Source: a phage
Strand: one strand, 5' to 3'
Sequence record: PZ168832.1
DNA: 64,000 nucleotides
Of the stretch, positions 1-17,542 are shown in pieces. The notes beneath the pieces are model-generated. The model did no database searches. It was not told the DNA's origin and saw only the letters and a list, made by a program, of their open reading frames with translations. Position 1 is the stretch's first letter; every line of letters starts with the position of its first letter. Both the position numbers and the translations under genes were made by a program.

Positions 1-437
1 GGGATGCGGTGATCAAGAAGGCGCTCTGTGTCCCACTCGCCAACCATCGACGCTTCATCGAGTACAACAAGGTGCGGCCTTTCATCCAGCTTTGACTTTC
101 TCGAAAAGATTGGCTCATTGTCGTCATTTACGCCGCGCACGTTATAGATGAACTGGTGAAGGGTCTTAGCGCCACGACAGCCTTTTTGCTTTAATCGGCT
201 TGCAGCCTTTCCGGTCGGCGCAATATAGATAGCGCCGTACTCACCGACACAGCGGCGCACAATCTCGCGAGCAATAGAGGTTTTACCAGTCCCTGCATAG
301 CCAGCGATGAAAAACACGCGCTTCGTCGTTTTACCGTCCTGCAATCGCTTGTACCATGCAACGGCTTTCTCGATGGCGTCGATTTGTTGCGCGTTAAACT
401 GAATCACTGGCTCATCATTAAATTCTGGAATGTTCAT
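1..437 (-). CDS. SF1 DNA helicase, Dda/RecD-like (N-terminal part; C-terminus lies beyond window start)
   Basis: Minus-strand translation from ATG (complement of 435-437) gives MNIPEFNDEP...FFIAGYAGTGKTSIAREI...YIAPTGKAASRL...LVVLDEASMV: Walker A, motif Ia and Walker B in the order typical of Dda/RecD helicases. Not in ORF track because it has no stop inside the window. Confidence 0.75.
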   Translation of the reverse strand, partial: MNIPEFNDEPVIQFNAQQIDAIEKAVAWYKRLQDGKTTKRVFFIAGYAGTGKTSIAREIVRRCVGEYGAIYIAPTGKAASRLKQKGCRGAKTLHQFIYNVRGVNDDNEPIFSRKSKLDERPHLVVLDEASMVGEWDTERLLDHRI

Positions 438-763
438 TATAACTCCACTACGCTTTCAAGGTCCAGATATACTGGAATAAAATGGCAATCTTCTTTTCGT
501 TCAAACATCTCACCATCAACATGGCTGAAGAAAACAGTTGTGTTTGGTATCTTCCATCCTTTCTCGTCGCGCACTAAGTACGCCATGGATTCAACAGGGA
601 TGTACAGCGATACCGGATTCGCGGCAAAAATAAATTTGATTCTGTCTGGTTGACCCAGGAATCGCATGATTGTTAGGCTTGAATTCAATCTTGTATTAAG
701 GAAGGACTCAACGATTCCGACGTGTGTTGCACGCTCGCGTTGCTTCGTCTCTTTTTCGTTCAT
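437..763 (-). CDS. hypothetical protein (108 aa)
   Basis: ORF track; stop overlaps helicase start (TAATG), consistent with operon coupling. Confidence 0.4.
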   Translation of the reverse strand: MNEKETKQRERATHVGIVESFLNTRLNSSLTIMRFLGQPDRIKFIFAANPVSLYIPVESMAYLVRDEKGWKIPNTTVFFSHVDGEMFERKEDCHFIPVYLDLESVVEL

Positions 764-868
764 TTCAGGCGACCTTTGTTAGTGCGGAAATATTTTTTGA
801 TAGTATAATTGCAGATATAGTATAAAGCAAAGTAAATCGAAATTGTGAACTAAATGGTAAATATTGTT

Positions 869-897
869 GACTTTGTATCACTCAATATTATACTGCA
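869..897 (+). promoter_or_regulatory. sigma70-like promoter upstream of primase gene (TTGACT, about 17 bp spacer, TATACT)
   Basis: Read directly in the 764-923 intergenic region; purine-rich RBS (gaaggaaag) precedes ATG at 924. Confidence 0.35.
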
Positions 898-923
898 GGT
901 ATTGATTACCGAAGGAAAGAAAG

Positions 924-2006
924 ATGGCTAGTTTAAGAGAAGAAGCAAAAATAATTGAAGAGTTTTTAACAGAACTCCAAAGAGGCATCCCAGAAGATGA
1001 GCGCGTCATGACGGTGTTTGCTCCTGAAGCAACGGTACAGACCGACGAGCGCGGCAAGAAGATCAACAGCAGCTTCTGGCCTAAGCCTTGGAAGTTGGGC
1101 AAGCCGCTCATGCAGCACCAAAACGGCTATGCGTGCATCAGTTCAATGCGTAAGTCTCCCAACCCAAAGACGGGTGAGATGCGATACTGGCGTACAGAGT
1201 CGGCCTTTGGTCACGGTATGGCGATGATGGTCGACGACATCGGCCACGGTAAAGGGTCCAAAGGCGATTTAGATTTGGAATTCTTTTTCGAGCGACTGAA
1301 GCCGACTGTCATTGTCGAGACGTCACCGAACAACCACCAGCTTTGGTACTTCTTTAAAGAGCCGATTGACCATCTTATTCAGTTCAAAGCATTCCTTGGG
1401 TCTTTCGTAAACATGGTACTCAAGAAGGGCGGCGACAATACGATTAAAGACGTGACGCGCGTGGGCCGTGTTCCTGGGTGCATCAACAACAAGCGTGTGA
1501 CTCACGACGGCCCCTATAAATATGTCGATGAGAACGGCGACCCGTTCCGCTGCCGACTTGTCCATGCAGACTACTCCTTGCGCTACACCATCGAAGACAT
1601 CTGTCAGGCATTTGGCTTTCACGTCGTTATGTCGCAAAAGCGTGAGATTCAAATTGACGTCGATGAATACAAGTACGATGCTGTTTGGTATAAAATAGCC
1701 CAGCAGATTCTAGCGCGCAACAAAATGGGTGAAGGGTCTGATGGCGACGTCATCGAGAACATGTCAGGCAAGTGCCGCATAATCTGTCCTTGGGGTGAAG
1801 AACACACCAACGGCGACCCGTATGGCGCTTATTTTCGCGGCCCCATCCCTGGTGCTGAACATGAATTCGTTTTCGGTTGCGCTCACGACTGTCACCGGAA
1901 AGGGGAAGGCAAGAAAGGTTGGACCGCTTTTGTTGAAGCAGTAGTCATGCCTTATATTGAGAATCAACTTGATATGATAAATCGTCGCGCAGGTGGCATA
2001 AAATAG
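924..2006 (+). CDS. DNA primase-polymerase of the archaeo-eukaryotic primase (AEP) type
   Basis: 360 aa; motifs MMVDDIGHG (DxD), ETSPNNHQLWYFF (S..H) and RVGRVPGCINNK (RxPGxxN) in the order characteristic of AEP/prim-pol domains. Confidence 0.6.
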   Translation: MASLREEAKIIEEFLTELQRGIPEDERVMTVFAPEATVQTDERGKKINSSFWPKPWKLGKPLMQHQNGYACISSMRKSPNPKTGEMRYWRTESAFGHGMAMMVDDIGHGKGSKGDLDLEFFFERLKPTVIVETSPNNHQLWYFFKEPIDHLIQFKAFLGSFVNMVLKKGGDNTIKDVTRVGRVPGCINNKRVTHDGPYKYVDENGDPFRCRLVHADYSLRYTIEDICQAFGFHVVMSQKREIQIDVDEYKYDAVWYKIAQQILARNKMGEGSDGDVIENMSGKCRIICPWGEEHTNGDPYGAYFRGPIPGAEHEFVFGCAHDCHRKGEGKKGWTAFVEAVVMPYIENQLDMINRRAGGIK

Positions 2007-2213
2007 TTTGCTTTTATTTTCATAGCAACTATAATCATTTTATGAACTGAAGCAGAGGTGATTTATGCAAAGCGAAGAATTGAACATCGAGGTTGAATGT
2101 CTGTTAAAGTCGTTAGAACATAAACCAGTAGAGCTTCCGACCCTTCAAGGAGTCATGGCTCACCATCAAGCGGCTGCGGCCAAACACTACTCTGAATTTG
2201 TTAAGGAATAAAA

Positions 2214-2504
2214 ATGAACGAACCAAAAATGATGACCGTTGAAGAAGCGCAAAAGCTTCGTGTTGAAAACGAGCTTAAGCTTGTCAACCAGATTCTCCCC
2301 TTGTTTGCAGGCTACGCAGTGGAGGAAGTTGTTGGGGCAATCCTTAACGTATCCACACATGTCGCTATGAATCTTCAGGCCGAACGATTCAATACGCTGC
2401 TGACTATTAAAAACCTTACGGTCAGTGCAACGTTCACCGTTGAGCCAGTCAATTTTGACGAAGCTGCAGCCGCGATTCAACAACAGCGAGATCAAGAGGT
2501 GTAG
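2214..2504 (+). CDS. hypothetical early protein (96 aa)
   Basis: ORF track; same strand, tightly packed. Confidence 0.4.
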   Translation: MNEPKMMTVEEAQKLRVENELKLVNQILPLFAGYAVEEVVGAILNVSTHVAMNLQAERFNTLLTIKNLTVSATFTVEPVNFDEAAAAIQQQRDQEV

Positions 2505-2506
2505 CA

Positions 2507-2769
2507 TGGGTGCTTTCCGTAACGAGTTCACCTGGAACGTTACCAGAAATCTCTCGACTTGTCCTAACTGTGCAAGCGATGTTATCAAGGTGCGGCAGCA
2601 TCGCAACGCGGAGGAAGGTGCCTGGGAAGATGGCGACCTTGTAGAGTGCCAGTGCTGCTCTCATGAAGGCGTTGTGGAGCTTTACGCTGGCGAAGGTTGC
2701 CCACCAGCAGAGCGCACAGCACGCGTTGAATGGGATGCAACAGACTCCATTGGTGATCCTCAACAGTAA
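2507..2769 (+). CDS. small zinc-ribbon-like protein
   Basis: Start moved to in-frame ATG (MGAFRNE...); CPNC...CQCC cysteine pairs. Confidence 0.4.
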
Positions 2770-2888
2770 ATTTAGGTATAGATACTTATGAAAGCCGTAA
2801 AGAAATACACATTAATCATTTCCCTTGTCATCATCCTGGGGCTATTATATGTATTGGATATGGCATATTATTTGGCAGGGGTGAGTGG

Positions 2889-3179
2889 ATGAATATTGTA
2901 ATTCTTTATGGTGAAAATATCAGCGATGACGACATCGAAGTTGCCGTTGATGTTTACGGTATCGATGAGGTGAAACGTGTTGAAGAAATTAGTGGCGCAA
3001 ATCTCAATGAGATTGTCAAAGAAGCTGGCTGCCCTTCGGAAGAGATTCTGGTGGTTACTAACGATGACCTGTCTTCTATGGATCATTTGCGCCGCATCTT
3101 CACCGATTGCCAATACCTTCATGCTGTTCAATCAGTAAACAAATTGAGAAAGGCATACGCCAACCAATTTCCTTGCTGA
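2889..3179 (+). CDS. hypothetical early protein (96 aa)
   Basis: ORF track. Confidence 0.4.
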   Translation: MNIVILYGENISDDDIEVAVDVYGIDEVKRVEEISGANLNEIVKEAGCPSEEILVVTNDDLSSMDHLRRIFTDCQYLHAVQSVNKLRKAYANQFPC

Positions 3180-3315
3180 TAGTTCACCAGTTATATTGCT
3201 TTAAATTGAGTTTTACTATATTAATATACAACGCCAGATTTCTGGCGTTTATTTACCGCACCCTGAAAGGATATATCCATGCAACAATATAACAAAGCCG
3301 TATCAGGAGGATTAA

Positions 3316-4986
3316 ATGTCAATTGAACATGACAATCTTCCAGAGGATACAGGTGATGAATTTGGTGCAATCTTTGACGAAATTCAAGACGCTGGTGTTT
3401 CAGAAGAAATGCAAGCAGCAGAGCAGCAAGGCACCAGAGCTAAAATAAGCCTTCAGCACAAGGCTGTTGAGAAAGATGCAGAGCGCATGGAATGCTACGG
3501 TGAAGAAGACTTGGTTGAAAGGGCACGTTTGCTCGCCTCACTTCAGGTAATCAAGTTCCCTCACTATAAACCGACGAAAGATGATTTTGTTCTTCAGGCG
3601 GACCGGACGAGTGACATGAACCGTTATGCGGTTTTCGACGCGTTGTTTGATAAGGGAAGCGGCGTTGTTCCATTCCCTCACAAAGATACTTTTCGTGGGC
3701 GCTTAGTCGACCATCGCGGCGAAACATTCACCGACCGGACGTTGGAAGTCACAGAGATAGTTGCCGCTGTCGACGCAGCAGGCCTGTCCAACCCAAACTC
3801 ACGGCAGGTCGCTCAATCCTATAAGGAATGGGCCATGCGTTATCAGCGCGACGACCTGATGGACTTCTTCTACAAGAAGCTGCCTGAATGGGACGGTACT
3901 GCGCGCATTGAGAAATACCTTATCGAGCTATTCCGACCGTTCGATACAGAGTTAAACCGACAAATCGGTGTGTATTTTTGGCTATCGCTCTATAACCGCC
4001 TGACCAACCCTGGCTGTCAAGCGCCAATATCCATTGCGCTCATCGGCGGCCAGAACGCAGGGAAGAGTTATTTTAGTAAGCTGCTTTGCGAAGCTATTAT
4101 GAACGACCGCCACGCAACACCGATTCCGTTGAACTTGGCCGCGCAAAACTTCAACCCGTTCTTGCGAGCTATTACGGGTCGCTCAATTATCGCGAACGTT
4201 GGCGAGATGACAGGCTTTAAAAAGGCCGACATCGAAAACATGAAAGCATTCCTGACTAAGACGGAAGATGACCTGGACTTCAAATTTGAAGACACGCAGG
4301 TTAAACCACGCCAGTGGATTGCGATCATGGACGGCAACGAATACGCAGGCATGCAGCGTGACGACACGGGCAACCGTCGTGTTTACCCTATCTTTGTTGG
4401 CCAACTTGCTGACAAGGACGGGCAACCGAACTGGTCTAAAGACTTCCAAGCTGACCTTTCCACTTTGAAAGAAGATGTTTGGCAGCTTATGGCTGAGTGC
4501 GCTGCGTGGATGGAGAAGCACGGCGAAGCAGGTTACAACGCCTTTGTTGGTGAAACGTCTCGTATGCTTACTGAGTTCAGCAAGAATGAAATGGAACGCG
4601 CTCGCGGCGTTATCCGTGATGAGATGGTCGACAACGACCTTGTTGAAGTCGTCATTACTGCGCCTTATGACCGACATCACAGCGGACGCTGGCACATCAC
4701 CAGTGGTGCAATCGCTATGGGATTCAGAGCTAAGTGCGGCAAGTCGCCTTTCTCACGTACCCTTGCGCCGCACATGTCGAAACTTGGATTTGAGCCTGCA
4801 ACCTATCGCAACCAGCGTGGTTACTTTACGCCGCTGATTAAGAATGAAGCAGGGGAATACATTTCTGACTTGATGACTATCTTGGCGTATCTTATCCGCG
4901 ACGAGTCTGACCCTGAAGATATTGAATTCTTGAAGAAGGTTATTGAACGCAAACGTTCTTTAGGAAGAGATAAGGATGAATTCTGA
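3316..4986 (+). CDS. VirE-like P-loop NTPase (primase-associated helicase-like replication protein)
   Basis: 556 aa; Walker A IALIGGQNAGKSYFSKLL; resembles primase C-terminal/VirE-family NTPases; lies downstream of the AEP primase. Confidence 0.55.
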   Translation: MSIEHDNLPEDTGDEFGAIFDEIQDAGVSEEMQAAEQQGTRAKISLQHKAVEKDAERMECYGEEDLVERARLLASLQVIKFPHYKPTKDDFVLQADRTSDMNRYAVFDALFDKGSGVVPFPHKDTFRGRLVDHRGETFTDRTLEVTEIVAAVDAAGLSNPNSRQVAQSYKEWAMRYQRDDLMDFFYKKLPEWDGTARIEKYLIELFRPFDTELNRQIGVYFWLSLYNRLTNPGCQAPISIALIGGQNAGKSYFSKLLCEAIMNDRHATPIPLNLAAQNFNPFLRAITGRSIIANVGEMTGFKKADIENMKAFLTKTEDDLDFKFEDTQVKPRQWIAIMDGNEYAGMQRDDTGNRRVYPIFVGQLADKDGQPNWSKDFQADLSTLKEDVWQLMAECAAWMEKHGEAGYNAFVGETSRMLTEFSKNEMERARGVIRDEMVDNDLVEVVITAPYDRHHSGRWHITSGAIAMGFRAKCGKSPFSRTLAPHMSKLGFEPATYRNQRGYFTPLIKNEAGEYISDLMTILAYLIRDESDPEDIEFLKKVIERKRSLGRDKDEF

Positions 4987-11898: not shown

Positions 11899-12347
11899 TG
11901 GGTAAAAAGCTTATCGCCGCTGGTTGGGCCATCCCGAAGTGGGCTCATCGTGCGCACTACTTTGATGAAGGAGAAGTGCAAAGCCTTTGTGGTCGCGCAA
12001 CTTATTTCGGTGATGAGCGCGTCAGCGGCGATTACATCGACTCGCTTTTAGGCAAAGGTGATTGCAAGAAATGTCAGGATATATTAAGAGATATTCTTAC
12101 GCAAAGAGGATTGCTTGAGCTTGATGAATCGGAGGAAGTAATTGAACTTAAGCTTGAAGCGAATTACCTTATTTATACGTTCAAGAACTATTACGCAACT
12201 AATATGCGCTCAAAAATGAGCGAGGAAGTAATAGAAAAGGTGTTCACCTACAATCCGCTAAGGATGAATAAAACTAAATTGAAGAAGTTTAATATAATGT
12301 TAAGGAAAGAATTTAAAAGGCTTGGAGTGAAGAATTTTATATTTTAA
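11895..12347 (+). CDS. hypothetical protein (150 aa), last gene of early operon
   Basis: ORF track; followed by a terminator. Confidence 0.4.
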   Translation: MMGKKLIAAGWAIPKWAHRAHYFDEGEVQSLCGRATYFGDERVSGDYIDSLLGKGDCKKCQDILRDILTQRGLLELDESEEVIELKLEANYLIYTFKNYYATNMRSKMSEEVIEKVFTYNPLRMNKTKLKKFNIMLRKEFKRLGVKNFIF

Positions 12348-12363
12348 TAGTGATTAATGTTAA

Positions 12364-12388
12364 GAGGGCCGATTGGCCCTTTTTGTTT
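12364..12388 (+). terminator. rho-independent terminator ending the early operon
   Basis: agggccgattggccc stem followed by ttttt. Confidence 0.5.
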
Positions 12389-12880
12389 GCCTGTGGAATG
12401 TGAGGCTTTTGTGGTTATTTACGATTCAAGGCTGTAATTTAAGAGAGCGAAAATATTATAATAATTTATCAAGATTATTGCATATTGTGGCAATCAACGT
12501 TTATACGTATTTATGACAGTTTAATCCACTAAATAATACGGATAGAACAGTGAGGAAAATACAGCGGTGTATTTTAGTGTAAATATTGAATCAAAAATAA
12601 ATAATTATGGTGCTATTATATACGCAGATTGTTTGTAATTTATAGGATATTTTATCGTGGAGTATTGGCTAACGGTGCGTTAGCCGTGGGTCTTGGTGCT
12701 TGTGGTGTTGATGCTCAGAATTTTAATAATGTTTTAGTTTTAGTAATCGTAGTCAATGATGATACGTATAAGAAAATGAGAGTCACCCCTTCACAGGATA
12801 TTGTACCGTGGCCCTGTGGTGCGCCGCGCCTGGGATTGCTGGTATACACTGGTGCTATTTTGCCGCGAAGGCAGTCATTC

Positions 12881-13210
12881 ATACGTATCATGACGTATCA
12901 TTGGGCTATTGATTTATAAGGAAAAATACGCTGATACGGATGATACGGGTGCAAACATAATATATATAGAATTCCAGAAAATTAATTAACTCCATTTTGA
13001 ATTAATTTAAATTAATTTTTTTCTACATCCTCATACTTATACTAAACTTATATTTATACGTATCATCCGTAAGATATAAGTAAAAACAAAGACTTGCGGC
13101 AATACGGATGATACGTCATGATACGCTTCAACCAGCCATCTGCGGCTAAGTCATTGATTTGCATAACAAGCGGCGAAAGGGATGGATTTCTTTTATACGT
13201 ATCAAACAGT
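12881..13210. repeat. iteron region A: CCGTATCAT / ATGATACGG copies in alternating orientation around an AT-rich core
   Basis: acgtatcatgacgtatcat (~12883), gatacggatgatacgg (~12933), AT-rich core with gaattc and attaatttaaattaattttttt, cgtatcatccgta (~13059), atacggatgatacgtcatgatacg (~13102), tatacgtatca (~13196). Confidence 0.6.
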
Positions 13211-13339
13211 ACACCACGCACCACGGTCCGCAATCCACGCAGCATTATGATTTGTGTACATTTATAGCCATAATGAACATCAATCTGCACTTGAATATAA
13301 TGTCCATCCATTGTATAATTCACACTATTAATTTGCACT

Positions 13340-13828
13340 ATGGGATTTTGCACTATGAGTCAAGACTATGTAGCGATGCCTGAAGACTTTGAAGACCCGC
13401 GATTTGCAGAGCACAATCAGGCTTTATTCGATGAGTTCATTGACCTTGTTATTCAGGGCCATGACATGCGCGCAGCTTTTGCACTAGTATTTGGAATGGA
13501 AGTTGCAACGGATAACTACACTGGACAGCGAATCCTTTGCGCGCAACGCAACCCATACTACAAAATGCGCTTCAAAAAGCGTATGGAAGAGATGCCACTC
13601 AAGGATTTGTGGAGCGTAAAAGGTGCAATTCACAATTTGGTTAAGCTTGTGCGTGATCCAGAAGTCGCGGCGTCAGCCAAGCTTAATGCTATTCGCGAAC
13701 TGAATATCATCTACGGCATCACGATGATTGATGAAAACGGCAATAGTAAAATGGGCCGTTCCATGGACGATTTCTACAAGGATTTTGGAGAGGCAGCCAA
13801 AGAAGGCGAGCAATTCTCCCGCCACTAG
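13340..13828 (+). CDS. possible terminase small subunit (alternatively a DNA-binding regulator)
   Basis: 162 aa; FIDLVIQGHDMRAAFALVFG...AQRNPYYKMRF resembles the helix-turn-helix region of small terminase families (from memory); flanked by the 12-mer array. Confidence 0.4.
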   Translation: MGFCTMSQDYVAMPEDFEDPRFAEHNQALFDEFIDLVIQGHDMRAAFALVFGMEVATDNYTGQRILCAQRNPYYKMRFKKRMEEMPLKDLWSVKGAIHNLVKLVRDPEVAASAKLNAIRELNIIYGITMIDENGNSKMGRSMDDFYKDFGEAAKEGEQFSRH

Positions 13829-13845
13829 CCAATTTGCACTATAAA

Positions 13846-13880
13846 ACGGCCCTAGAACACATCTTCTCCACTTCTAGGGC
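13846..13880 (+). terminator. perfect 10-bp inverted repeat (ggccctagaa ... ttctagggcc), probable terminator
   Basis: Directly after the 13340..13828 stop; no strong T-run. Confidence 0.35.
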
Positions 13881-13942
13881 CGTCGGTAATACGACGGGGA
13901 AGGTTGCAACCGTAAACGCGTTAGAAAGTGTATTATTATAAG

Positions 13943-14206
13943 TCATCTTTTAGTCACCTTACGTAACAATTTACGACCTTCAGCCGTCCAATCGAACGAC
14001 TCCACCAGCAGATTCGCACTATAACCTAAGATGATGCGCCCTTTCTCGTTATCGACCCGCCAACAAGTCTCGAATAGCATTCGATTTGCACTATTAACTA
14101 TCGCCGCAACGCGCGTAGGGTAAACGCAATTTGCACTATGGTCATAAAGGGATAAGGTGCGACCACTTCCGATGGACAACGTAGCGATGAGAATGAGCGT
14201 ATTCAT
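13943..14206 (-). CDS. hypothetical protein (87 aa), island gene
   Basis: ORF track; CpG-rich codon usage; contains two 12-mer copies. Confidence 0.35.
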   Translation of the reverse strand: MNTLILIATLSIGSGRTLSLYDHSANCVYPTRVAAIVNSANRMLFETCWRVDNEKGRIILGYSANLLVESFDWTAEGRKLLRKVTKR

Positions 14207-14256
14207 AAGCCACCAATTTGCACTATGAAAAGCGACCCCGAAGGGCCGCCATTCGA

Positions 14257-14883
14257 TTAGATAATCTGGAAGGTGTAGGACTTGTTGCCGAACTCGAAGT
14301 TCAAGCGCCCAGCTTCCTTAAGCTTCATGCGGAAGCGAATATGTTTGCTATCCGGTAAGCCCAGCGCGGCGAACGCTACGCGGACCGATTTGAACTCTCC
14401 TACACCCTCGACCATAACGCCGTTACGGGTAAGACGCTTTTGCGCCACTTCCTTATTATCCCAACTTTTTGCAATGCCTTCGCTATTCGAACGGCGATGG
14501 GAAGGAGTTCCGTTTTGCACTACGCAATTTGCACTATCGTTTAAACCGCTCTTAACGAAGGCTTCATACTCTTCGTCGGTCATCGCGTCGAGTTCTTCCT
14601 GCGTCGGCTCGGCCTTTTTAACGACCGCACGCGCCTTATGCGTTTTTACATCGCTGGACACTTCCTCGCGCGGCTTCGCGTCGGGGATGGGCGATTCGTT
14701 GGACGGCTCATCGAGCGCGTTTAAGGACTCGATTAACGCGATTACGCGAGTCTCGGCGGTCCGGCGGTCCGAAAACTTCTTAATCGGTTTTGAGCCGGAA
14801 TTTGCATTATAGAATGCAACGAGGTCGGCGGTCTTAGTTGCGATAACGTCGCCGCTAGTCGAGAAGCGATTTAAGCTAACCAT
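14257..14883 (-). CDS. hypothetical protein (208 aa) with acidic central segment, island gene
   Basis: ORF track; EPTQEELDAMTDEEYEAF; unusually NCG-codon-rich. Confidence 0.45.
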   Translation of the reverse strand: MVSLNRFSTSGDVIATKTADLVAFYNANSGSKPIKKFSDRRTAETRVIALIESLNALDEPSNESPIPDAKPREEVSSDVKTHKARAVVKKAEPTQEELDAMTDEEYEAFVKSGLNDSANCVVQNGTPSHRRSNSEGIAKSWDNKEVAQKRLTRNGVMVEGVGEFKSVRVAFAALGLPDSKHIRFRMKLKEAGRLNFEFGNKSYTFQII

Positions 14884-14963
14884 AATAAACTCCTATTTGT
14901 TAGGGCGCTAGGCGCGAAAGAATTTTATTAAAGCGCCGCGCACGACGCTCTAAAAATCCTCTC

Positions 14964-15248
14964 TTACGCTTCGACGAGGGAGAAGGTTTCAAATTCTTCT
15001 TCTCCCATAACGAGTAAAATATTCCCGATTTCGACCGCTTCGAAGAAGTATCCGTTAACGTTTACTTCGAATGATTCGCGGTCCGATTCCGGTAACGCCG
15101 CGTAAAGTTTAAAAGCCTCGGCGACCGTTACCCCACCCGCTTCAATAGTTTGATCTACGTTCGCGGCGTAGACTTCGGATAAATTTTGTTTTACGCCGTA
15201 GTTCTCGACGATAGCGTTACGGATAGAAGAAACGTTAAGAATAGCCAT
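14964..15248 (-). CDS. small acidic protein, paralogue family member 1 (94 aa)
   Basis: About 16 D/E versus 4 K/R; SEVYAANVDQTIE and FEVNVNGYFFEAVEIGN align with YLSNVDATIE and YRVTINGFVYTITEIGG of 15880..16170. Confidence 0.5.
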   Translation of the reverse strand: MAILNVSSIRNAIVENYGVKQNLSEVYAANVDQTIEAGGVTVAEAFKLYAALPESDRESFEVNVNGYFFEAVEIGNILLVMGEEEFETFSLVEA

Positions 15249-15316
15249 TTTAAACTCCTAGTTGGGATAGGCGTTAACGACCTATTCGTTAACTCATCCC
15301 GTCCCGATATGAGTAC

Positions 15317-15344
15317 ATTATAATATAGTGTAGAAAAAAGTAAA
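15317..15344 (-). promoter_or_regulatory. promoter-leader cassette, copy 1 (minus strand): TTTACT, spacer, TATAAT, leader gtactcatatcgggacggg
   Basis: Reverse complement of the divergent region matches the two plus-strand cassette copies. Confidence 0.4.
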
Positions 15345-15388
15345 GCACTTTTTCGATAAAAATGCGATAAATTATTTTATCTTTTTTC

Positions 15389-15433
15389 TTTACTTCTTCG
15401 TACACTCGCGTATACTTGTTTATATCGAGACGG
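15389..15433 (+). promoter_or_regulatory. promoter-leader cassette, copy 2: TTTACT (16 bp) TATACT, leader gtttatatcgagacggg
   Basis: ctttacttcttcgtacactcgcgtatacttgtttatatcgagacggg upstream of ATG 15472. Confidence 0.45.
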
Positions 15434-15471
15434 GCGATGGCCTTTCTTCTACTAGCATCGGGAGCTTTATT

Positions 15472-15774
15472 ATGACTACTTTGATCTCTTCCATCCTTAC
15501 TTACGACGAAGACCGCTTAACCGTTCGCTCTCTTATCGCCGCCGTTAACGCGGAACTAGAATCTAGCGCCATTAAGGTCCGCGCGGTCGCCTTCATCGGC
15601 CTTTCCTTCGACGATATGAAGTACGCCGAACGTAGCGCCATCCGCTTCACGAAGACCGACGACGAAGCCGTTACCCTTATCGAGACGGTTACGCCGCGCG
15701 ACGAAGCGTTAATTATCATCGAGTATATCGATATAGAAGGTGATAAAGCTTATAAATATTTTATCGCAAAATAA
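15472..15774 (+). CDS. small acidic protein (100 aa), island gene
   Basis: ORF track; driven by cassette copy 2. Confidence 0.45.
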   Translation: MTTLISSILTYDEDRLTVRSLIAAVNAELESSAIKVRAVAFIGLSFDDMKYAERSAIRFTKTDDEAVTLIETVTPRDEALIIIEYIDIEGDKAYKYFIAK

Positions 15775-15785
15775 CGAAAAATTGC

Positions 15786-15830
15786 TTTACTTATTCGTAC
15801 ACTAAGACTATAATGTTTATATCGAGAGGG
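15786..15830 (+). promoter_or_regulatory. promoter-leader cassette, copy 3: TTTACT (17 bp) TATAAT, leader gtttatatcgagaggg
   Basis: gctttacttattcgtacactaagactataatgtttatatcgagaggg upstream of ATG 15880. Confidence 0.45.
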
Positions 15831-15879
15831 ATGAGGAAGCGAATAGGTCGCTACCCTCCCGACTAACTAGGAGAATATT

Positions 15880-16170
15880 ATGATTACTTTATCCGCTATC
15901 CGCGCCGCTCGCGTCGAAACTTCCGAAAACTCTAATGTATTTGGCGAAACCTTAGAGAGCGTTTATCTCTCTAACGTAGACGCGACTATCGAGTCTATTT
16001 ATGAACCGATCAACTTCCTCGACCTTTACAAGTATCGCGACGAGGACGTAGCATCCTACCGCGTAACGATTAACGGCTTCGTCTATACGATTACCGAAAT
16101 CGGCGGCGAATATCTCGCGATCCCGCAACTCGGCGGAGAAGTGACTTATTTTAAAATCGTAAGCCTTTAA
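15880..16170 (+). CDS. small acidic protein, paralogue family member 2 (96 aa)
   Basis: Alignable to 14964..15248 product; about 15 D/E versus 6 K/R. Confidence 0.5.
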   Translation: MITLSAIRAARVETSENSNVFGETLESVYLSNVDATIESIYEPINFLDLYKYRDEDVASYRVTINGFVYTITEIGGEYLAIPQLGGEVTYFKIVSL

Positions 16171-16181
16171 GGAGAAGAAAA

Positions 16182-16391
16182 ATGACTAATATGAATAACT
16201 CTCTTAACGCGCGCGCCCATCGTACCGCCGTCATCGATATGTTCCGCGAACTTAAGGAATTATGCGATAATATGAACGCGATGTTATCCATCGGCGGCTG
16301 GGGATACGAAGAAGAGGTTAAATACGCGGTTATGCGTCGTAAGCGCGATAACGTCCTGGGACAAATTAAACGCGCCGGATTATTCCTTTAA
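16182..16391 (+). CDS. hypothetical small protein (69 aa)
   Basis: ORF track; aggag RBS. Confidence 0.4.
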   Translation: MTNMNNSLNARAHRTAVIDMFRELKELCDNMNAMLSIGGWGYEEEVKYAVMRRKRDNVLGQIKRAGLFL

Positions 16392-16416
16392 TTATAATTA
16401 CCCACCGTTACTAATA

Positions 16417-16440
16417 GGCCGCGCTTAGTCGCGGCTTTTC
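16417..16440 (+). terminator. rho-independent terminator (ggccgcgcttagtcgcggc plus tttt)
   Basis: Read directly after 16182..16391. Confidence 0.45.
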
Positions 16441-16561
16441 TTCGTCCCTATTTCGATGCGCTTCTCCGCGAAAACTCCTTTATCCTTCCCTTCGTCGTCG
16501 CATAATCTTCTTCGAGATGCTCCTTAGTTCGCATAACAGGTATTACGTTAAATGGAGAACA

Positions 16562-16823
16562 TCGCGTAAGTCCTTGTTTTATATAGACACCTATATCGGA
16601 CCGTTAGGGCGGGTCGCGTAAGTCGTTGTTTTATAAAGGCGCAAAACTTTCCCTTCGTTCCGAACTAAAACGAGGAATATGCCGACCCTTCGTCCGAAAA
16701 TAGTACGCATGCGAAATTACATGCATCTAGAATAATCCCCACCGATATTATCCTACACGCAATCATTCGCTTTCGAATCATTATGCTTCATATTGTTATG
16801 CGTCAAATCATTCGCTTTCGAAT
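16562..16823. repeat. direct repeats in an ORF-poor region: tcgcgtaagtc(c/g)ttgttttata x2 and atcattcgctttcgaat x2
   Basis: Copies at about 16562/16614 and 16762/16807; the second contains palindrome attcg-cttt-cgaat. Confidence 0.4.
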
Positions 16824-17095
16824 TGTAACGCTGGAAACTGTAACGGCTATTGATTATTGCGTTCGTGTGGTTTTTATGGCATGGGTCTTTTGGTGCGTTT
16901 TGGTACTTGATGGAATTTGCGGTACACTAATCAAAATACGACACATTTGGTCCACTAACTTTTCAAAGAAAAAGTCCCAGACAGTACCGTACTATTTTGT
17001 ACCCACAGTAAATTTGCAGTACACTCCTGCGCGGCAGGCAAAATAAAGGGCCGCCACAGCGACCCACGATTCACGGTTAAATCAACAAGCACCCA

Positions 17096-17542
17096 CTATT
17101 CACTCTTATGGGCATCACCAAAGCCATCCGCAATCTGGCTGATCAGCGATTCAATGGACACAGTTTTACCAATTGATCGAGCGGTAATAGCAAGCATATT
17201 ATCAATCAAACCATGATTGGATGCATATGATCCAGGTTTTGAATCATCTTCAGAACAACCAAAAAGCTGGTCGCGCAGACTTTCAAGAGAACGCTCAATA
17301 TTTTCCAACTTCTCTTCTAAATCGGATTGGCGACGTAAAACCCACGTCAAGTCACGGTTGCCAACTTCCAATCCATCAGAATAGCAAGGTGGAGCGTCAA
17401 TTTTGATGCTGGAACCAAAAGCAATGCCGCTGCCTTTAGTATATGTGTGACTCATAGAATCATTTTTATTTGACATATCGTTACCTTCAATATTTGGGTG
17501 ATTAACAATAAGTATAATAAAGCCGCATAGCGCGGCATTCAA
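17096..17542 (-). CDS. hypothetical protein (start possibly at internal MSNKND)
   Basis: ORF track. Confidence 0.4.
   Translation of the reverse strand: MNAALCGFIILIVNHPNIEGNDMSNKNDSMSHTYTKGSGIAFGSSIKIDAPPCYSDGLEVGNRDLTWVLRRQSDLEEKLENIERSLESLRDQLFGCSEDDSKPGSYASNHGLIDNMLAITARSIGKTVSIESLISQIADGFGDAHKSE

What the first reader, a model, noticed from the sequence alone, without database searches (positions are those of the whole stretch)
13330..14810. Same-orientation array of the 12-mer AATTTGCACTAT around and downstream of the terS-like gene
At least 8 copies occur within 1.5 kb, all on the plus strand: two straddle the start codon of 13340..13828, one follows its stop, and the rest lie inside minus-strand island genes, so they are antisense to local coding. 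Related AATTTGC(G/A)GTACACT occurs at about 16914 and 17010. Such density is not chance. Options are terminase-small-subunit binding sites (pac region), operators for a regulator, or promoters for a phage RNA polymerase (the CACTAT core recalls T7-family promoters, though no RNA polymerase gene is in this window).
Basis: seen in the sequence. Interest (0 to 1): 0.55.

Follow-up and report, generated by a model that had tools for sequence, protein, structure and literature searches.

The report
One-way 12-mer array in phage terminal repeat
A 12-base word is repeated about a dozen times, always pointing the same way, near one physical end of an E. coli phage genome around its small-terminase gene; five related phage lineages keep the same array, so it is almost certainly a functional DNA signal, most likely for genome packaging, that nobody has described.

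Summary
RATTYGCACTAY occurs 12 times at 13317-14810, all on the + strand. The core TTTGCACTA occurs 9 times against 0.6 expected, and nowhere else in the ~68 kb genome.

The window is a Wifcevirus, a PB1-like E. coli myophage. By homology to phage Mansfield, the array lies 0.3-1.8 kb inside the left end of a ~3.9 kb direct terminal repeat (12994-16890). It starts on the sigma-70 promoter, RBS and ATG of terS (13355-13828), a homologue of the E217 TerS decamer.

Five further lineages (TerS 43-68% identical, DNA mostly unalignable) keep the same one-way array: 61 copies on the + strand, none on the other. No flanking bases are conserved, and site positions turn over.

It is not a T7-type or sigma-70 promoter set. 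Only 12 bp are conserved, no phage RNA polymerase gene is annotated, and there are no copies elsewhere.

The best reading is a polar packaging signal read by the terminase, doubling as an operator on terS (confidence about 0.4). Rivals are another phage regulator, a Chi-like signal for an enzyme entering from the DNA end, and origin iterons.

The "related" motif at 16914/17011 belongs to a separate conserved box at the right repeat boundary.

The parts
13317..13328 (+). Degenerate motif copy AATTCACACTAT. It overlaps the last 3 nt of the terS -10 box and the predicted transcription start.
   Evidence: identical in 6 Wifcevirus genomes
13330..13341 (+). Motif copy AATTTGCACTAT in the terS leader, just upstream of the RBS.
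13345..13356 (+). Motif copy ATTTTGCACTAT. Its last bases run into the terS start codon (ATG 13355).
13476..13487 (+). Motif copy CTTTTGCACTAG inside terS (codons A-F-A-L-V). L016 has a copy at the same position.
13831..13842 (+). Motif copy 2 nt after the terS stop codon, abutting the T-tract of the leftward terminator hairpin 13848-13881.
14011..14022 (+). Motif copy GATTCGCACTAT, antisense inside gene 13943..14206. It is preceded by the single Chi complement CCACCAGC at 14002.
14083..14094 (+). Motif copy GATTTGCACTAT, antisense inside gene 13943..14206.
14128..14139 (+). Motif copy AATTTGCACTAT, antisense inside gene 13943..14206.
14215..14226 (+). Motif copy AATTTGCACTAT, intergenic, between a hairpin (about 14232-14249) and the start of gene 13943..14206.
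14512..14523 (+). Motif copy GTTTTGCACTAC, antisense inside gene 14257..14883. Missing in ECML-117.
14526..14537 (+). Motif copy AATTTGCACTAT, antisense inside gene 14257..14883. Missing in ECML-117.
14799..14810 (+). Degenerate motif copy AATTTGCATTAT, antisense inside gene 14257..14883.
13355..13828 (+). terS, the terminase small subunit (157 aa).
   Evidence: phmmer hit to PDB 7UXE (E217 small terminase), E=7e-34; annotated as terminase small subunit in Mansfield
13291..13319 (+). Sigma-70-type terS promoter, TTGAAT-17-TATAAT. The TATAAT is conserved in all six array-bearing lineages.
12994..16890 (.). Direct terminal repeat (about 3.9 kb), inferred by homology. The left end corresponds to base 1 of Mansfield and the right end to Mansfield 3673. 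The WFC record places the right end at window 16971.
   Evidence: PMC6753283; PMC6563267
16891..16933 (+). Conserved box just outside the right repeat boundary. It is a separate element, not an array member.
   Evidence: conserved in Mansfield, L016 and Kyle
12882..13125 (.). ATACGGAT / ATCCGTAT-type repeats in inverted arrangement on both sides of the AT-rich left terminus (12882-12902, 12933-12948 | 13057-13074, 13101-13125). This is a second candidate terminase or origin element.

Best explanation
The array is a cis-acting, direction-giving DNA signal of the phage's genome-packaging system.

The 12-bp word RATTYGCACTAY is repeated 10-14 times, always in one orientation. It lies in the first 0.3-1.8 kb of the ~3.9 kb direct terminal repeat and begins on the promoter, RBS and start codon of terS.

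The proposed mechanism is inferred, not shown. Each word is a binding site for one DNA-binding module of the ring-shaped small terminase, or of the terminase holoenzyme. Because every site has the same polarity, the complexes that assemble there have a defined direction relative to the left terminal cut site ~320 bp away. Two roles are possible:
- They could set the direction of packaging at initiation, like lambda cosB or the SPP1 pac boxes.
- They could be read by the arriving motor just before the final cut, like lambda cosQ.

The three copies on the terS promoter and translation start would at the same time hold terS expression down. This fits the finding that excess TerS is harmful in the related phage E217.

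Shown here: the array exists, is polar, is confined to this place, is conserved across six lineages while its site positions turn over, and lies beside a mapped genome end and around terS. Inferred: who binds it and what binding does.
For: 1. Non-random, polar and unique. TTTGCACTA occurs 9 times against 0.59 expected, all on the + strand and all within 13332-14536. There are none in the rest of the genome.

2. Position. Mansfield's record starts at window 12994, the left end of a PhageTerm-predicted 3,673-bp DTR. WFC and WFH independently show ~3.7 kb repeats. The array spans +324 to +1817 from that end.

3. It surrounds terS, which is homologous to the E217 TerS decamer.

4. Deep conservation of the word and its polarity, but not of site positions. 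Five further lineages were examined: L016 (TerS 68% identical), L019 (54%), L017 (51%), L018 (47%) and Pantoea phage Kyle (43%). In each, GCACTA is the top or joint-top 6-mer of the region, with 7-14 copies on the + strand and none on the other. The total is 61:0, binomial p=9e-19.

5. Only 12 positions carry information, as expected for one monomeric DNA-binding module.

6. Within Wifcevirus, motif positions vary less than their surroundings: 3.5% against 9.6%, p=0.013.

7. The copies are not protein-driven. They are intergenic, sense in terS and antisense in two other genes, and in two reading frames.

8. The array tracks a TerS subgroup. Array-bearing TerS have [Q/K/R]-R65-N66 at the head of the basic stretch RNPYYKMRFKKR. 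Relatives without the array (Pbunavirus, Myosmarvirus, XcP1, Maja) have E-[S/A/F]-N.

9. One lineage (L018) has drifted to G[C/T]ACTA, with 7+7 copies. This suggests a co-evolving, phage-encoded reader.

10. In 5 of 6 lineages a copy lies directly after the conserved TATAAT of the terS promoter. TerS overdose lowers E217 infectivity (PMC9611059).
Against: No binding data exist. The homologous E217 TerS showed no appreciable DNA binding in vitro (PMC9611059).

Known pac and cosB regions span less than 0.3 kb, not 1.5 kb with gaps of 10-390 bp.

A different set of conserved repeats (ATACGGAT-type, inverted) brackets the left cut site itself. These could be the real terminase sites.

MyoSmar has a 3.6-kb DTR, yet the two relatives from its genus examined here (Hera, TropicalSun) lack the array. 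The array is therefore not needed for DTR packaging as such.

The word is nearly unchanged between phages whose TerS share only 43% identity. That is more constancy than terminase sites usually show.

Oriented Chi clusters in relatives suggest the left end is the free or leading end. That would put packaging initiation at the other end and leave only the termination-signal version of this model.
Confidence: 0.4

Rival explanations
1. Operator array for another phage-encoded, sequence-specific DNA-binding protein, not the terminase. This protein would switch off the sigma-70 terS promoter and block or silence the leftward early operon that the array covers, acting as a temporal switch. The many sites would raise local occupancy or act as roadblocks.
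For: Three copies sit from the -10 box across the RBS and ATG of terS, and a copy follows the conserved TATAAT in 5 of 6 lineages. The rest lie inside the early operon driven by the leftward promoter 15344-15317. A 12-bp asymmetric site suits a monomeric HTH. The repeat encodes small proteins of unknown function, one in a PHROG called 'transcriptional regulator' (16182-16391). Another, g208, shows weak SAP-like and NUMOD-like hints.
Confidence: 0.2
2. A Chi-like polar signal. The word would be read on one strand by an enzyme that enters at or travels from the left DNA end, such as a host or phage helicase-nuclease or a replication or ejection machine. It would change that enzyme's behaviour and so protect or activate the first DNA to enter the cell.
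For: The signature matches Chi and KOPS: strict polarity, free positions, irregular spacing and high local density. In relatives the same ~1.5 kb carries arrays of the true Chi complement CCACCAGC in the same orientation, interleaved with the motif. The counts are Kyle 10, L017 7, L019 5, TropicalSun 5 and Hera 4, with no GCTGGTGG on that strand. That orientation is active for RecBCD entering from the left end. Terminal oriented Chi clusters are an established phage strategy (P1, lambdoid LLS; PMC12315714). The E. coli phages have the motif array but almost no Chi there.
Against: The word is not Chi and, from memory, matches no known Chi variant. No enzyme is known to read it. Kyle, L017 and L019 carry both arrays, so the two are not simple substitutes. 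L018's drift to G[C/T]ACTA fits a phage-encoded reader better than a conserved host enzyme. No arrays of the word were found in bacterial genomes; the hits were tandem repeats or phage contamination.
Confidence: 0.15
3. Iterons of a replication origin, bound by a phage initiator such as the primase-helicase.
For: The repeats are direct and lie next to a 110-bp AT-rich stretch (12950-13060) in a region of low GC (0.36). The phage encodes primases and helicases. From memory, P4-type primase-helicases bind short repeated octamers.
Against: Spacing is irregular (10-390 bp) rather than the ~11 or ~22 bp phasing of iterons. The array lies mostly inside coding DNA, up to 1.8 kb from the AT-rich stretch. 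The ATACGGAT-type repeats that actually flank the AT-rich stretch are better iteron candidates. Strict one-way orientation over 1.5 kb is unusual for origins.
Confidence: 0.07
4. An RNA-level device. Sense copies in the terS mRNA, including its RBS and AUG, would pair with the reverse-complement copies carried by the leftward early mRNAs. This would couple terS translation or stability to early transcription.
For: The copies on the terS RBS and ATG are in the sense orientation. The copies in the minus-strand genes put the exact complement into those mRNAs. The orientation rule follows automatically.
Against: In L016, L017 and L018, copies lie upstream of the terS promoter. Kyle has six sense copies inside terS and none on its RBS. 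The copy at 13831 lies beyond the leftward terminator. There is no Rfam match and no structure signal.
Confidence: 0.05
5. Promoters, either for a phage RNA polymerase or sigma factor or for the host polymerase.
For: CACTAT loosely recalls T7-type promoters and a -10 box. TTTGC..TA loosely recalls the T4 MotA box (from memory).
Against: No RNA polymerase gene is annotated in the complete 97%-identical genome. Only 12 bp are conserved, with no -35, -10 or initiation-region partner at any distance. There are no copies upstream of any other gene in 68 kb. Most copies point against local genes. Ordinary sigma-70 promoters are present and distinct.
Confidence: 0.03

Closest known systems
Lambda cosB (gpNu1 R sites) and cosQ; SPP1 pacL/pacR boxes; P1 pac hexamer repeats. 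These are terminase recognition elements, cited from established knowledge rather than tested here.
   Same: They are short repeated words next to the terminal cut site and next to or inside the small-terminase gene. Orientation matters in them, and the sites overlap the terS promoter or leader (SPP1, lambda).
   Different: Those elements span under 0.3 kb and have 2-7 sites, some of them inverted. Here 10-14 strictly co-oriented sites spread over 1.0-1.5 kb, mostly inside other genes, starting ~320 bp from the cut, in a phage with a 3.9-kb direct terminal repeat. Binding by TerS is unproven.
Chi (5'-GCTGGTGG-3') clusters near phage genome ends (P1, lambdoid LLS; PMC12315714)
   Same: Both show strict polarity, high density near one DNA end, free positions and site turnover. 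True Chi arrays occupy the same place and orientation in sister lineages (Kyle, L017, L019, Myosmarvirus).
   Different: The sequence is unrelated to Chi and no reading enzyme is known. The motif also sits on the terS promoter and start, which Chi has no reason to do.
Short-repeat arrays (SRL/SRR) beside the T7 terminal repeat, and T3/T7 pacB (from memory, not verified here)
   Same: These are arrays of short direct repeats close to the terminal repeat of a DTR phage whose concatemers hold one repeat copy that is duplicated at packaging (PMC10438801).
   Different: The T7 arrays lie outside a 160-bp repeat. Here the array lies inside a 3.9-kb repeat that also carries genes, and the phage is an unrelated myovirus using host RNA polymerase.
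Plasmid or phage iterons and parC/parS-type centromere repeats
   Same: Both are direct repeats of a 10-12 bp protein site that can overlap a promoter for autoregulation.
   Different: Iterons and centromere repeats are regularly phased and compact. This array is irregular and dispersed through coding DNA.

Membership tests
Terminase small-subunit recognition region (pac / cosB-type) | Lies close to the DNA end or cut site generated at packaging | tested here: met
   The array spans +324 to +1817 from window 12994, which equals base 1 of Mansfield (PhageTerm DTR boundary). The end is inferred by homology, not measured for this isolate.
Terminase small-subunit recognition region (pac / cosB-type) | Lies next to or within the terS gene | tested here: met
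   Copies lie on the promoter, RBS and ATG, inside, and 2 nt after terS.
Terminase small-subunit recognition region (pac / cosB-type) | Bound specifically by TerS or the terminase | not testable with these tools
   This needs EMSA, footprinting or ChIP. E217 TerS showed no appreciable DNA binding in vitro (PMC9611059).
Terminase small-subunit recognition region (pac / cosB-type) | Required in cis for packaging | not testable with these tools
   This needs a genetic or transduction assay.
Terminase small-subunit recognition region (pac / cosB-type) | Site sequence co-varies with TerS specificity | tested here: inconclusive
   The array is present only where TerS has [QKR]-R65-N66 and absent where it has E-[SAF]-N. 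L018 has a shifted word, G[CT]ACTA. However, the core is unchanged across TerS proteins that share 43-68% identity.
Chi / RecBCD hotspot | Sequence 5'-GCTGGTGG-3' (or its complement on the given strand) | tested here: not met
   The motif is RATTYGCACTAY. Only one CCACCAGC (14002) lies in the cluster.
Chi / RecBCD hotspot | One-way orientation relative to a DNA end, clustered near that end | tested here: met
   The strand count is 61:0, within 2 kb of the left DTR end. This is a resemblance in behaviour only.
T7-type single-subunit RNA polymerase promoter | A phage RNA polymerase gene in the genome | tested here: not met
   None appears among the 114 annotated genes of 97%-identical Bas99. This rests on annotation, not on my own profile search.
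T7-type single-subunit RNA polymerase promoter | About 20 conserved bp running through the start site, placed upstream of genes in the sense orientation throughout the genome | tested here: not met
   Only 12 bp carry information. All copies lie in one 1.5 kb cluster and most are antisense to local genes.
Sigma-70 promoter / T4 MotA-box middle promoter | A partner hexamer (-35 or -10) at fixed spacing | tested here: not met
   There is no information content from -30 to -6 or from +7 to +35 around 61 copies.
Replication-origin iterons | Regular, helically phased spacing next to an AT-rich unwinding element | tested here: not met
   Gaps are 13, 15, 131, 355, 180, 72, 45, 87, 297, 14 and 273 bp. 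The AT-rich stretch lies 260 bp or more upstream of the first copy.
Protein-coding or tandem-duplication by-product | Copies share longer flanks or a single reading frame | tested here: not met
   Flanks are unrelated. Copies are intergenic, sense and antisense, and in two frames. By contrast, IMG/VR contigs L043, L034 and L066 showed the coding-repeat pattern.

The most novel reading that the evidence does not exclude
The word is a new polar 'traffic signal' of the Chi/KOPS/cosQ kind. It would be read on one strand by a moving machine in the terminal repeat of long-DTR myophages, and not simply bound as a static operator. The machine could be the packaging motor approaching the terminal cut, or a helicase-nuclease entering the leading DNA end. 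In some lineages the word works alongside true Chi arrays, and in coliphages it takes their place.
Probability: 0.2. Interest if true: 0.8.

Novelty: new variant of a known kind. Interest (0 to 1): 0.55.

Why it matters
How phages with long direct terminal repeats recognise their DNA, choose a packaging direction, and cut at two different boundaries is essentially unknown outside T7 and T3.

This analysis gives a concrete set of conserved cis elements to test in a group that now has E. coli K-12-infecting members (BASEL Bas98-101) and a solved TerS relative (E217). The elements are:
- the one-way 12-mer array;
- the inverted ATACGGAT-type repeats at the left cut;
- a conserved box at the right cut.

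If the array is the TerS site, it would give the first cognate DNA for an E217-type TerS, which has so far shown no DNA binding. If it is instead read by a moving enzyme, it would be a new polar signal.

Knowing the packaging signals also matters for engineering or rebooting these phages, and their Pseudomonas therapy relatives, and for judging their transduction risk.

Tried and rejected
- Literature search for the 9-mers in full text: 848 papers, all primers or unrelated sequences.
- Papers mentioning Wifcevirus, E217 TerS, Mansfield, WFC or MyoSmar: none describes the motif. The E217 paper itself is not held.
- IMG/VR scan for two copies within 30 bp: apart from Wifcevirus contigs, hits were 22-bp-period tandem arrays or 42/84-bp coding repeats with long shared flanks. 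No unrelated phage showed a comparable dispersed array.
- The same scan of 185,579 bacterial and archaeal genomes: only tandem repeats, chance pairs and two Wifcevirus-contaminated 'Xanthomonas pisi' contigs. No host array was found.
- Locus search with a TerS alignment failed for lack of a conserved block. Single-protein scans returned only near-identical phages.
- Pfam on the repeat's proteins: nothing. PHROGs gave only unnamed families plus one 'transcriptional regulator'.
- The homologue search for g208 returned only 98-100% identical proteins.
- Rfam on 12000-17500: no match.
- Rejected from memory as poor matches: DnaA box, Tus/Ter, the sigma-54 -12 element, an NtrC half-site, the marbox and the EcoKI site.
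- My early idea that the left-end repeats are lineage-specific while the motif is invariant was wrong. The ATACGGAT-type repeats are conserved too.
Full report
**What the window is**

The region 12900-15300 is 92-97% identical to about 29 Wifcevirus genomes (E. coli/Shigella myophages of ~68 kb). The closest is ManiWeber_Bas99.

The record of phage Mansfield starts at window 12994 and annotates bases 1-3673 as a direct terminal repeat (DTR) predicted by PhageTerm. Its last base corresponds to window 16890. WFC and WFH were independently reported with ~3.7 kb terminal repeats. The WFC record ends 81 bp further right, at window 16971.

The finding therefore lies in the left third of a ~3.9 kb terminal repeat, 0.3-1.8 kb from a physical genome end. 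That end is inferred by homology and was not measured for this isolate.

**The observation**

- The exact 12-mer has 5 copies, against 0.02 expected.
- With at most 1 mismatch there are 8 copies.
- The core TTTGCACTA has 9 copies against 0.59 expected, all on the + strand and all within 13332-14536.
- Counting degenerate copies gives 12, at 13317-14810.
- There are none elsewhere in the window.
- There are none in the ~4.3 kb of the genome that the window lacks, as read in Bas99.

Flanks are unrelated, so the copies are not duplications of a longer unit.

**Local anatomy**

ORF 13340..13828 is the small terminase. Its best PDB match is the Pseudomonas phage E217 TerS decamer, 7UXE, at E=7e-34. 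The likely start is ATG 13355, as annotated in Mansfield and aligned in all relatives.

A strong sigma-70-type promoter, TTGAAT-17-TATAAT (13291-13319), precedes it. Its TATAAT is conserved in every relative examined.

The copies are placed as follows:
- Three tandem copies (13317, 13330, 13345; spacing 13 and 15 bp) run from the -10 box across the RBS into the ATG.
- One copy is inside terS.
- One lies 2 nt after the terS stop codon, abutting a leftward terminator hairpin.
- One is intergenic.
- Six are antisense inside two minus-strand genes of an operon driven by a leftward sigma-70 promoter at 15344-15317.

Five of those six encode x-S-A-N-x and the sixth uses another frame. The third frame would give a TAG stop. 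The frame bias is therefore a tolerance effect and not the cause of the repeats.

**Comparative evidence**

I looked for relatives of TerS and read the DNA around them. The synteny is the same throughout: terS about 360 bp from the repeat's left end, then small minus-strand genes. The table lists GCACTA copies on the + strand in the window from terS -150 to terS +1500.

| Lineage | TerS identity to window | GCACTA copies, + strand |
|---|---|---|
| Window (Wifcevirus) | - | 10 |
| L016, a 72.5-kb Logan contig | 68% | 10 |
| L019 | 54% | 11 |
| L017 | 51% | 9 |
| L018 | 47% | 7 |
| Pantoea phage Kyle (3,603-bp DTR) | 43% | 14 |

None of these lineages has a copy on the other strand in that interval. 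The total is 61:0 (p=9e-19). Poisson p per lineage ranges from 2.5e-7 to 3e-16.

An unbiased 6-mer count puts GCACTA first or joint first in all six regions.

A logo of the 61 sites shows information only at R-A-T-(T/c)-(T/c)-G-C-A-C-T-A-(T/c). Nothing is conserved from -30 to -6 or from +7 to +35.

Site positions are shared only between close lineages. In distant lineages they differ, even inside homologous genes. ECML-117 lacks three copies because of a divergent gene allele.

Within Wifcevirus, motif bases vary less than their neighbours: 3.5% against 9.6%, p=0.013.

L018 has partly shifted to G[C/T]ACTA, with 7+7 copies.

The array is absent from these relatives:
- Myosmarvirus (Hera, TropicalSun), whose genus member MyoSmar has a 3,559-bp DTR;
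- Pbunavirus, which has a permuted, headful-packaged genome (PMC12345254);
- XcP1;
- Maja.

TerS proteins of array-bearing phages share [Q/K/R]-R65-N66 at the head of a basic stretch. The others have E-[S/A/F]-N.

**What this excludes**

- Chance, duplication and protein-coding explanations are excluded.
- Promoters for a phage RNA polymerase are not supported. No such gene is annotated in Bas99. Only 12 bp are conserved, no other gene in the genome has the word upstream, and most copies oppose local genes.
- Sigma-70 or MotA-type promoters lack any partner element.
- Regularly phased iterons do not fit the spacing.
- No Rfam family matches.

**What it most likely is**

A 12-bp asymmetric word under selection for density and orientation, but not for position, points to a machine with a direction. 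Its location next to a packaging-generated end and wrapped around terS points to packaging. That is where pac and cosB sites lie in lambda, SPP1, P22 and P1 (established knowledge).

I therefore favour a polar terminase-recognition array. An inverted site would nucleate a wrongly oriented complex, which would explain the 61:0 strand count.

The three copies on the terS promoter, RBS and ATG would give autoregulation. This fits the harmful effect of excess TerS in E217.

Whether the array acts at initiation (cosB-like) or is read by the arriving motor before the final cut 320 bp beyond it (cosQ-like) cannot be decided from sequence.

I hold this at about 0.4 for five reasons:
- Binding is untested, and E217 TerS did not bind DNA appreciably in vitro.
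- The array is far more extended than any known pac site.
- The cut site itself is bracketed by other conserved repeats (ATACGGAT-type, inverted) that could be the real terminase sites.
- The two Myosmarvirus genomes examined lack the array, although the genus has a DTR member.
- The word is unusually constant across TerS proteins sharing only 43-68% identity.

**Rivals**

1. Another phage regulator using the sites as operators or roadblocks on terS and the early operon (0.2). This is weak on the polarity, and no binder was found.
2. A Chi-like signal for an enzyme moving in from the left end (0.15). Its support comes from true Chi complements, CCACCAGC, forming one-way arrays in the same place in Kyle (10), L017 (7), L019 (5), TropicalSun (5) and Hera (4). 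These are interleaved with the motif where both occur and are oriented for RecBCD entering at the left end. Such terminal Chi clusters are known in P1 and lambdoid phages. The coliphages have the motif but almost no Chi.
3. Origin iterons (0.07).
4. Sense/antisense RNA pairing between terS mRNA and the early mRNAs (0.05). Copies upstream of the promoter in three lineages contradict this.
5. Promoters (0.03).

**The 'related' motif**

AATTTGCGGTACACT (16914-16928) lies 24 bp beyond the right repeat boundary. It sits inside a ~45-bp box that is conserved in Mansfield, L016 and Kyle. In L016 the AATTTGC part reads CAATTGCC, and the GCACTA core is absent. It is a separate boundary element, probably part of the right-end cutting signal, and not a member of the array. 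The second copy (17011-17025) is conserved only in close relatives.

**Novelty**

I found no description of the array in the papers on these phages or by searching the sequence itself. No comparable array appeared in unrelated viral or bacterial sequence.

I rate it a new variant of a known kind: a packaging- or terminus-associated recognition array. There is a real chance (about 0.2) that it is a new polar signal read by a moving machine.

Noticed in passing
L003 (Kyle) 255-1972; L017 323-1824; L019 411-1836; L006 5487-5992; L005 4737-5833; window 14002 only: One-way arrays of CCACCAGC, the complement of Chi (GCTGGTGG), occupy the same left part of the terminal repeat in related phages of Pantoea, Serratia and Erwinia. 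They are oriented for RecBCD entering at the left end. The E. coli phages (window, L016) have almost none. Terminal Chi clusters are known in P1 and lambdoid phages (PMC12315714) but, as far as I found, have not been reported for these DTR myophages. The orientation implies that the left end is the exposed or leading end.
   Followed up: partly
window 12882-12902, 12933-12948, 13057-13074, 13101-13125: ATACGGAT / ATCCGTAT-type repeats sit in inverted arrangement on both sides of the 110-bp AT-rich stretch that holds the left terminal cut (12994). TACGGAT-like repeats occur at the same place in L016-L019 and Kyle. They are a candidate terminase-positioning or origin element.
   Followed up: partly
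window 16891-16933 and 16763-16830: A conserved ~45-bp box lies immediately outside the right repeat boundary (shared with Mansfield, L016 and Kyle). AATCATTCGCTTTCGAAT-type repeats lie just inside it (GAATCATT x5 in L018). The left ends also share a motif (C|AYTTWAAA). Mansfield and WFC disagree by 81 bp on the right boundary.
   Followed up: partly
window 13291-13319, 15344-15317 (-), 15389-15416, 15786-15814: Four strong sigma-70-type promoters lie inside the terminal repeat, three of them with the same unusual -35 TTTACT. terS itself has a near-consensus host-type promoter, conserved as far as Myosmarvirus. This is odd for a packaging gene and suggests early or tightly repressed expression.
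   Followed up: partly
[not shown]
   Followed up: partly
L077, L088 (NZ_JPLE01000260.1, NZ_JPLE01000215.1): Two sub-1.1-kb contigs in the 'Xanthomonas pisi DSM 18956' assembly carry Wifcevirus terS-region DNA, partly identical to the window. This is probably contamination of that assembly.
   Followed up: partly
L005 5520-5650 (Hera), L006 5526-5640: Three tandem copies of AAAAAATAAGCATGCTTTGTATAGG (a small palindrome plus an A/T run, probably leftward terminators) alternate with Chi complements just downstream of terS in Myosmarvirus.
   Followed up: no
L043, L034, L066, L030 (IMG/VR contigs, GC about 0.36): The same 7-mer TGCACTA recurs 9-12 times with 42/84-bp periodicity and long shared flanks. 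This is a protein-coding repeat in an unrelated virus group, a look-alike that is not the same phenomenon.
   Followed up: partly
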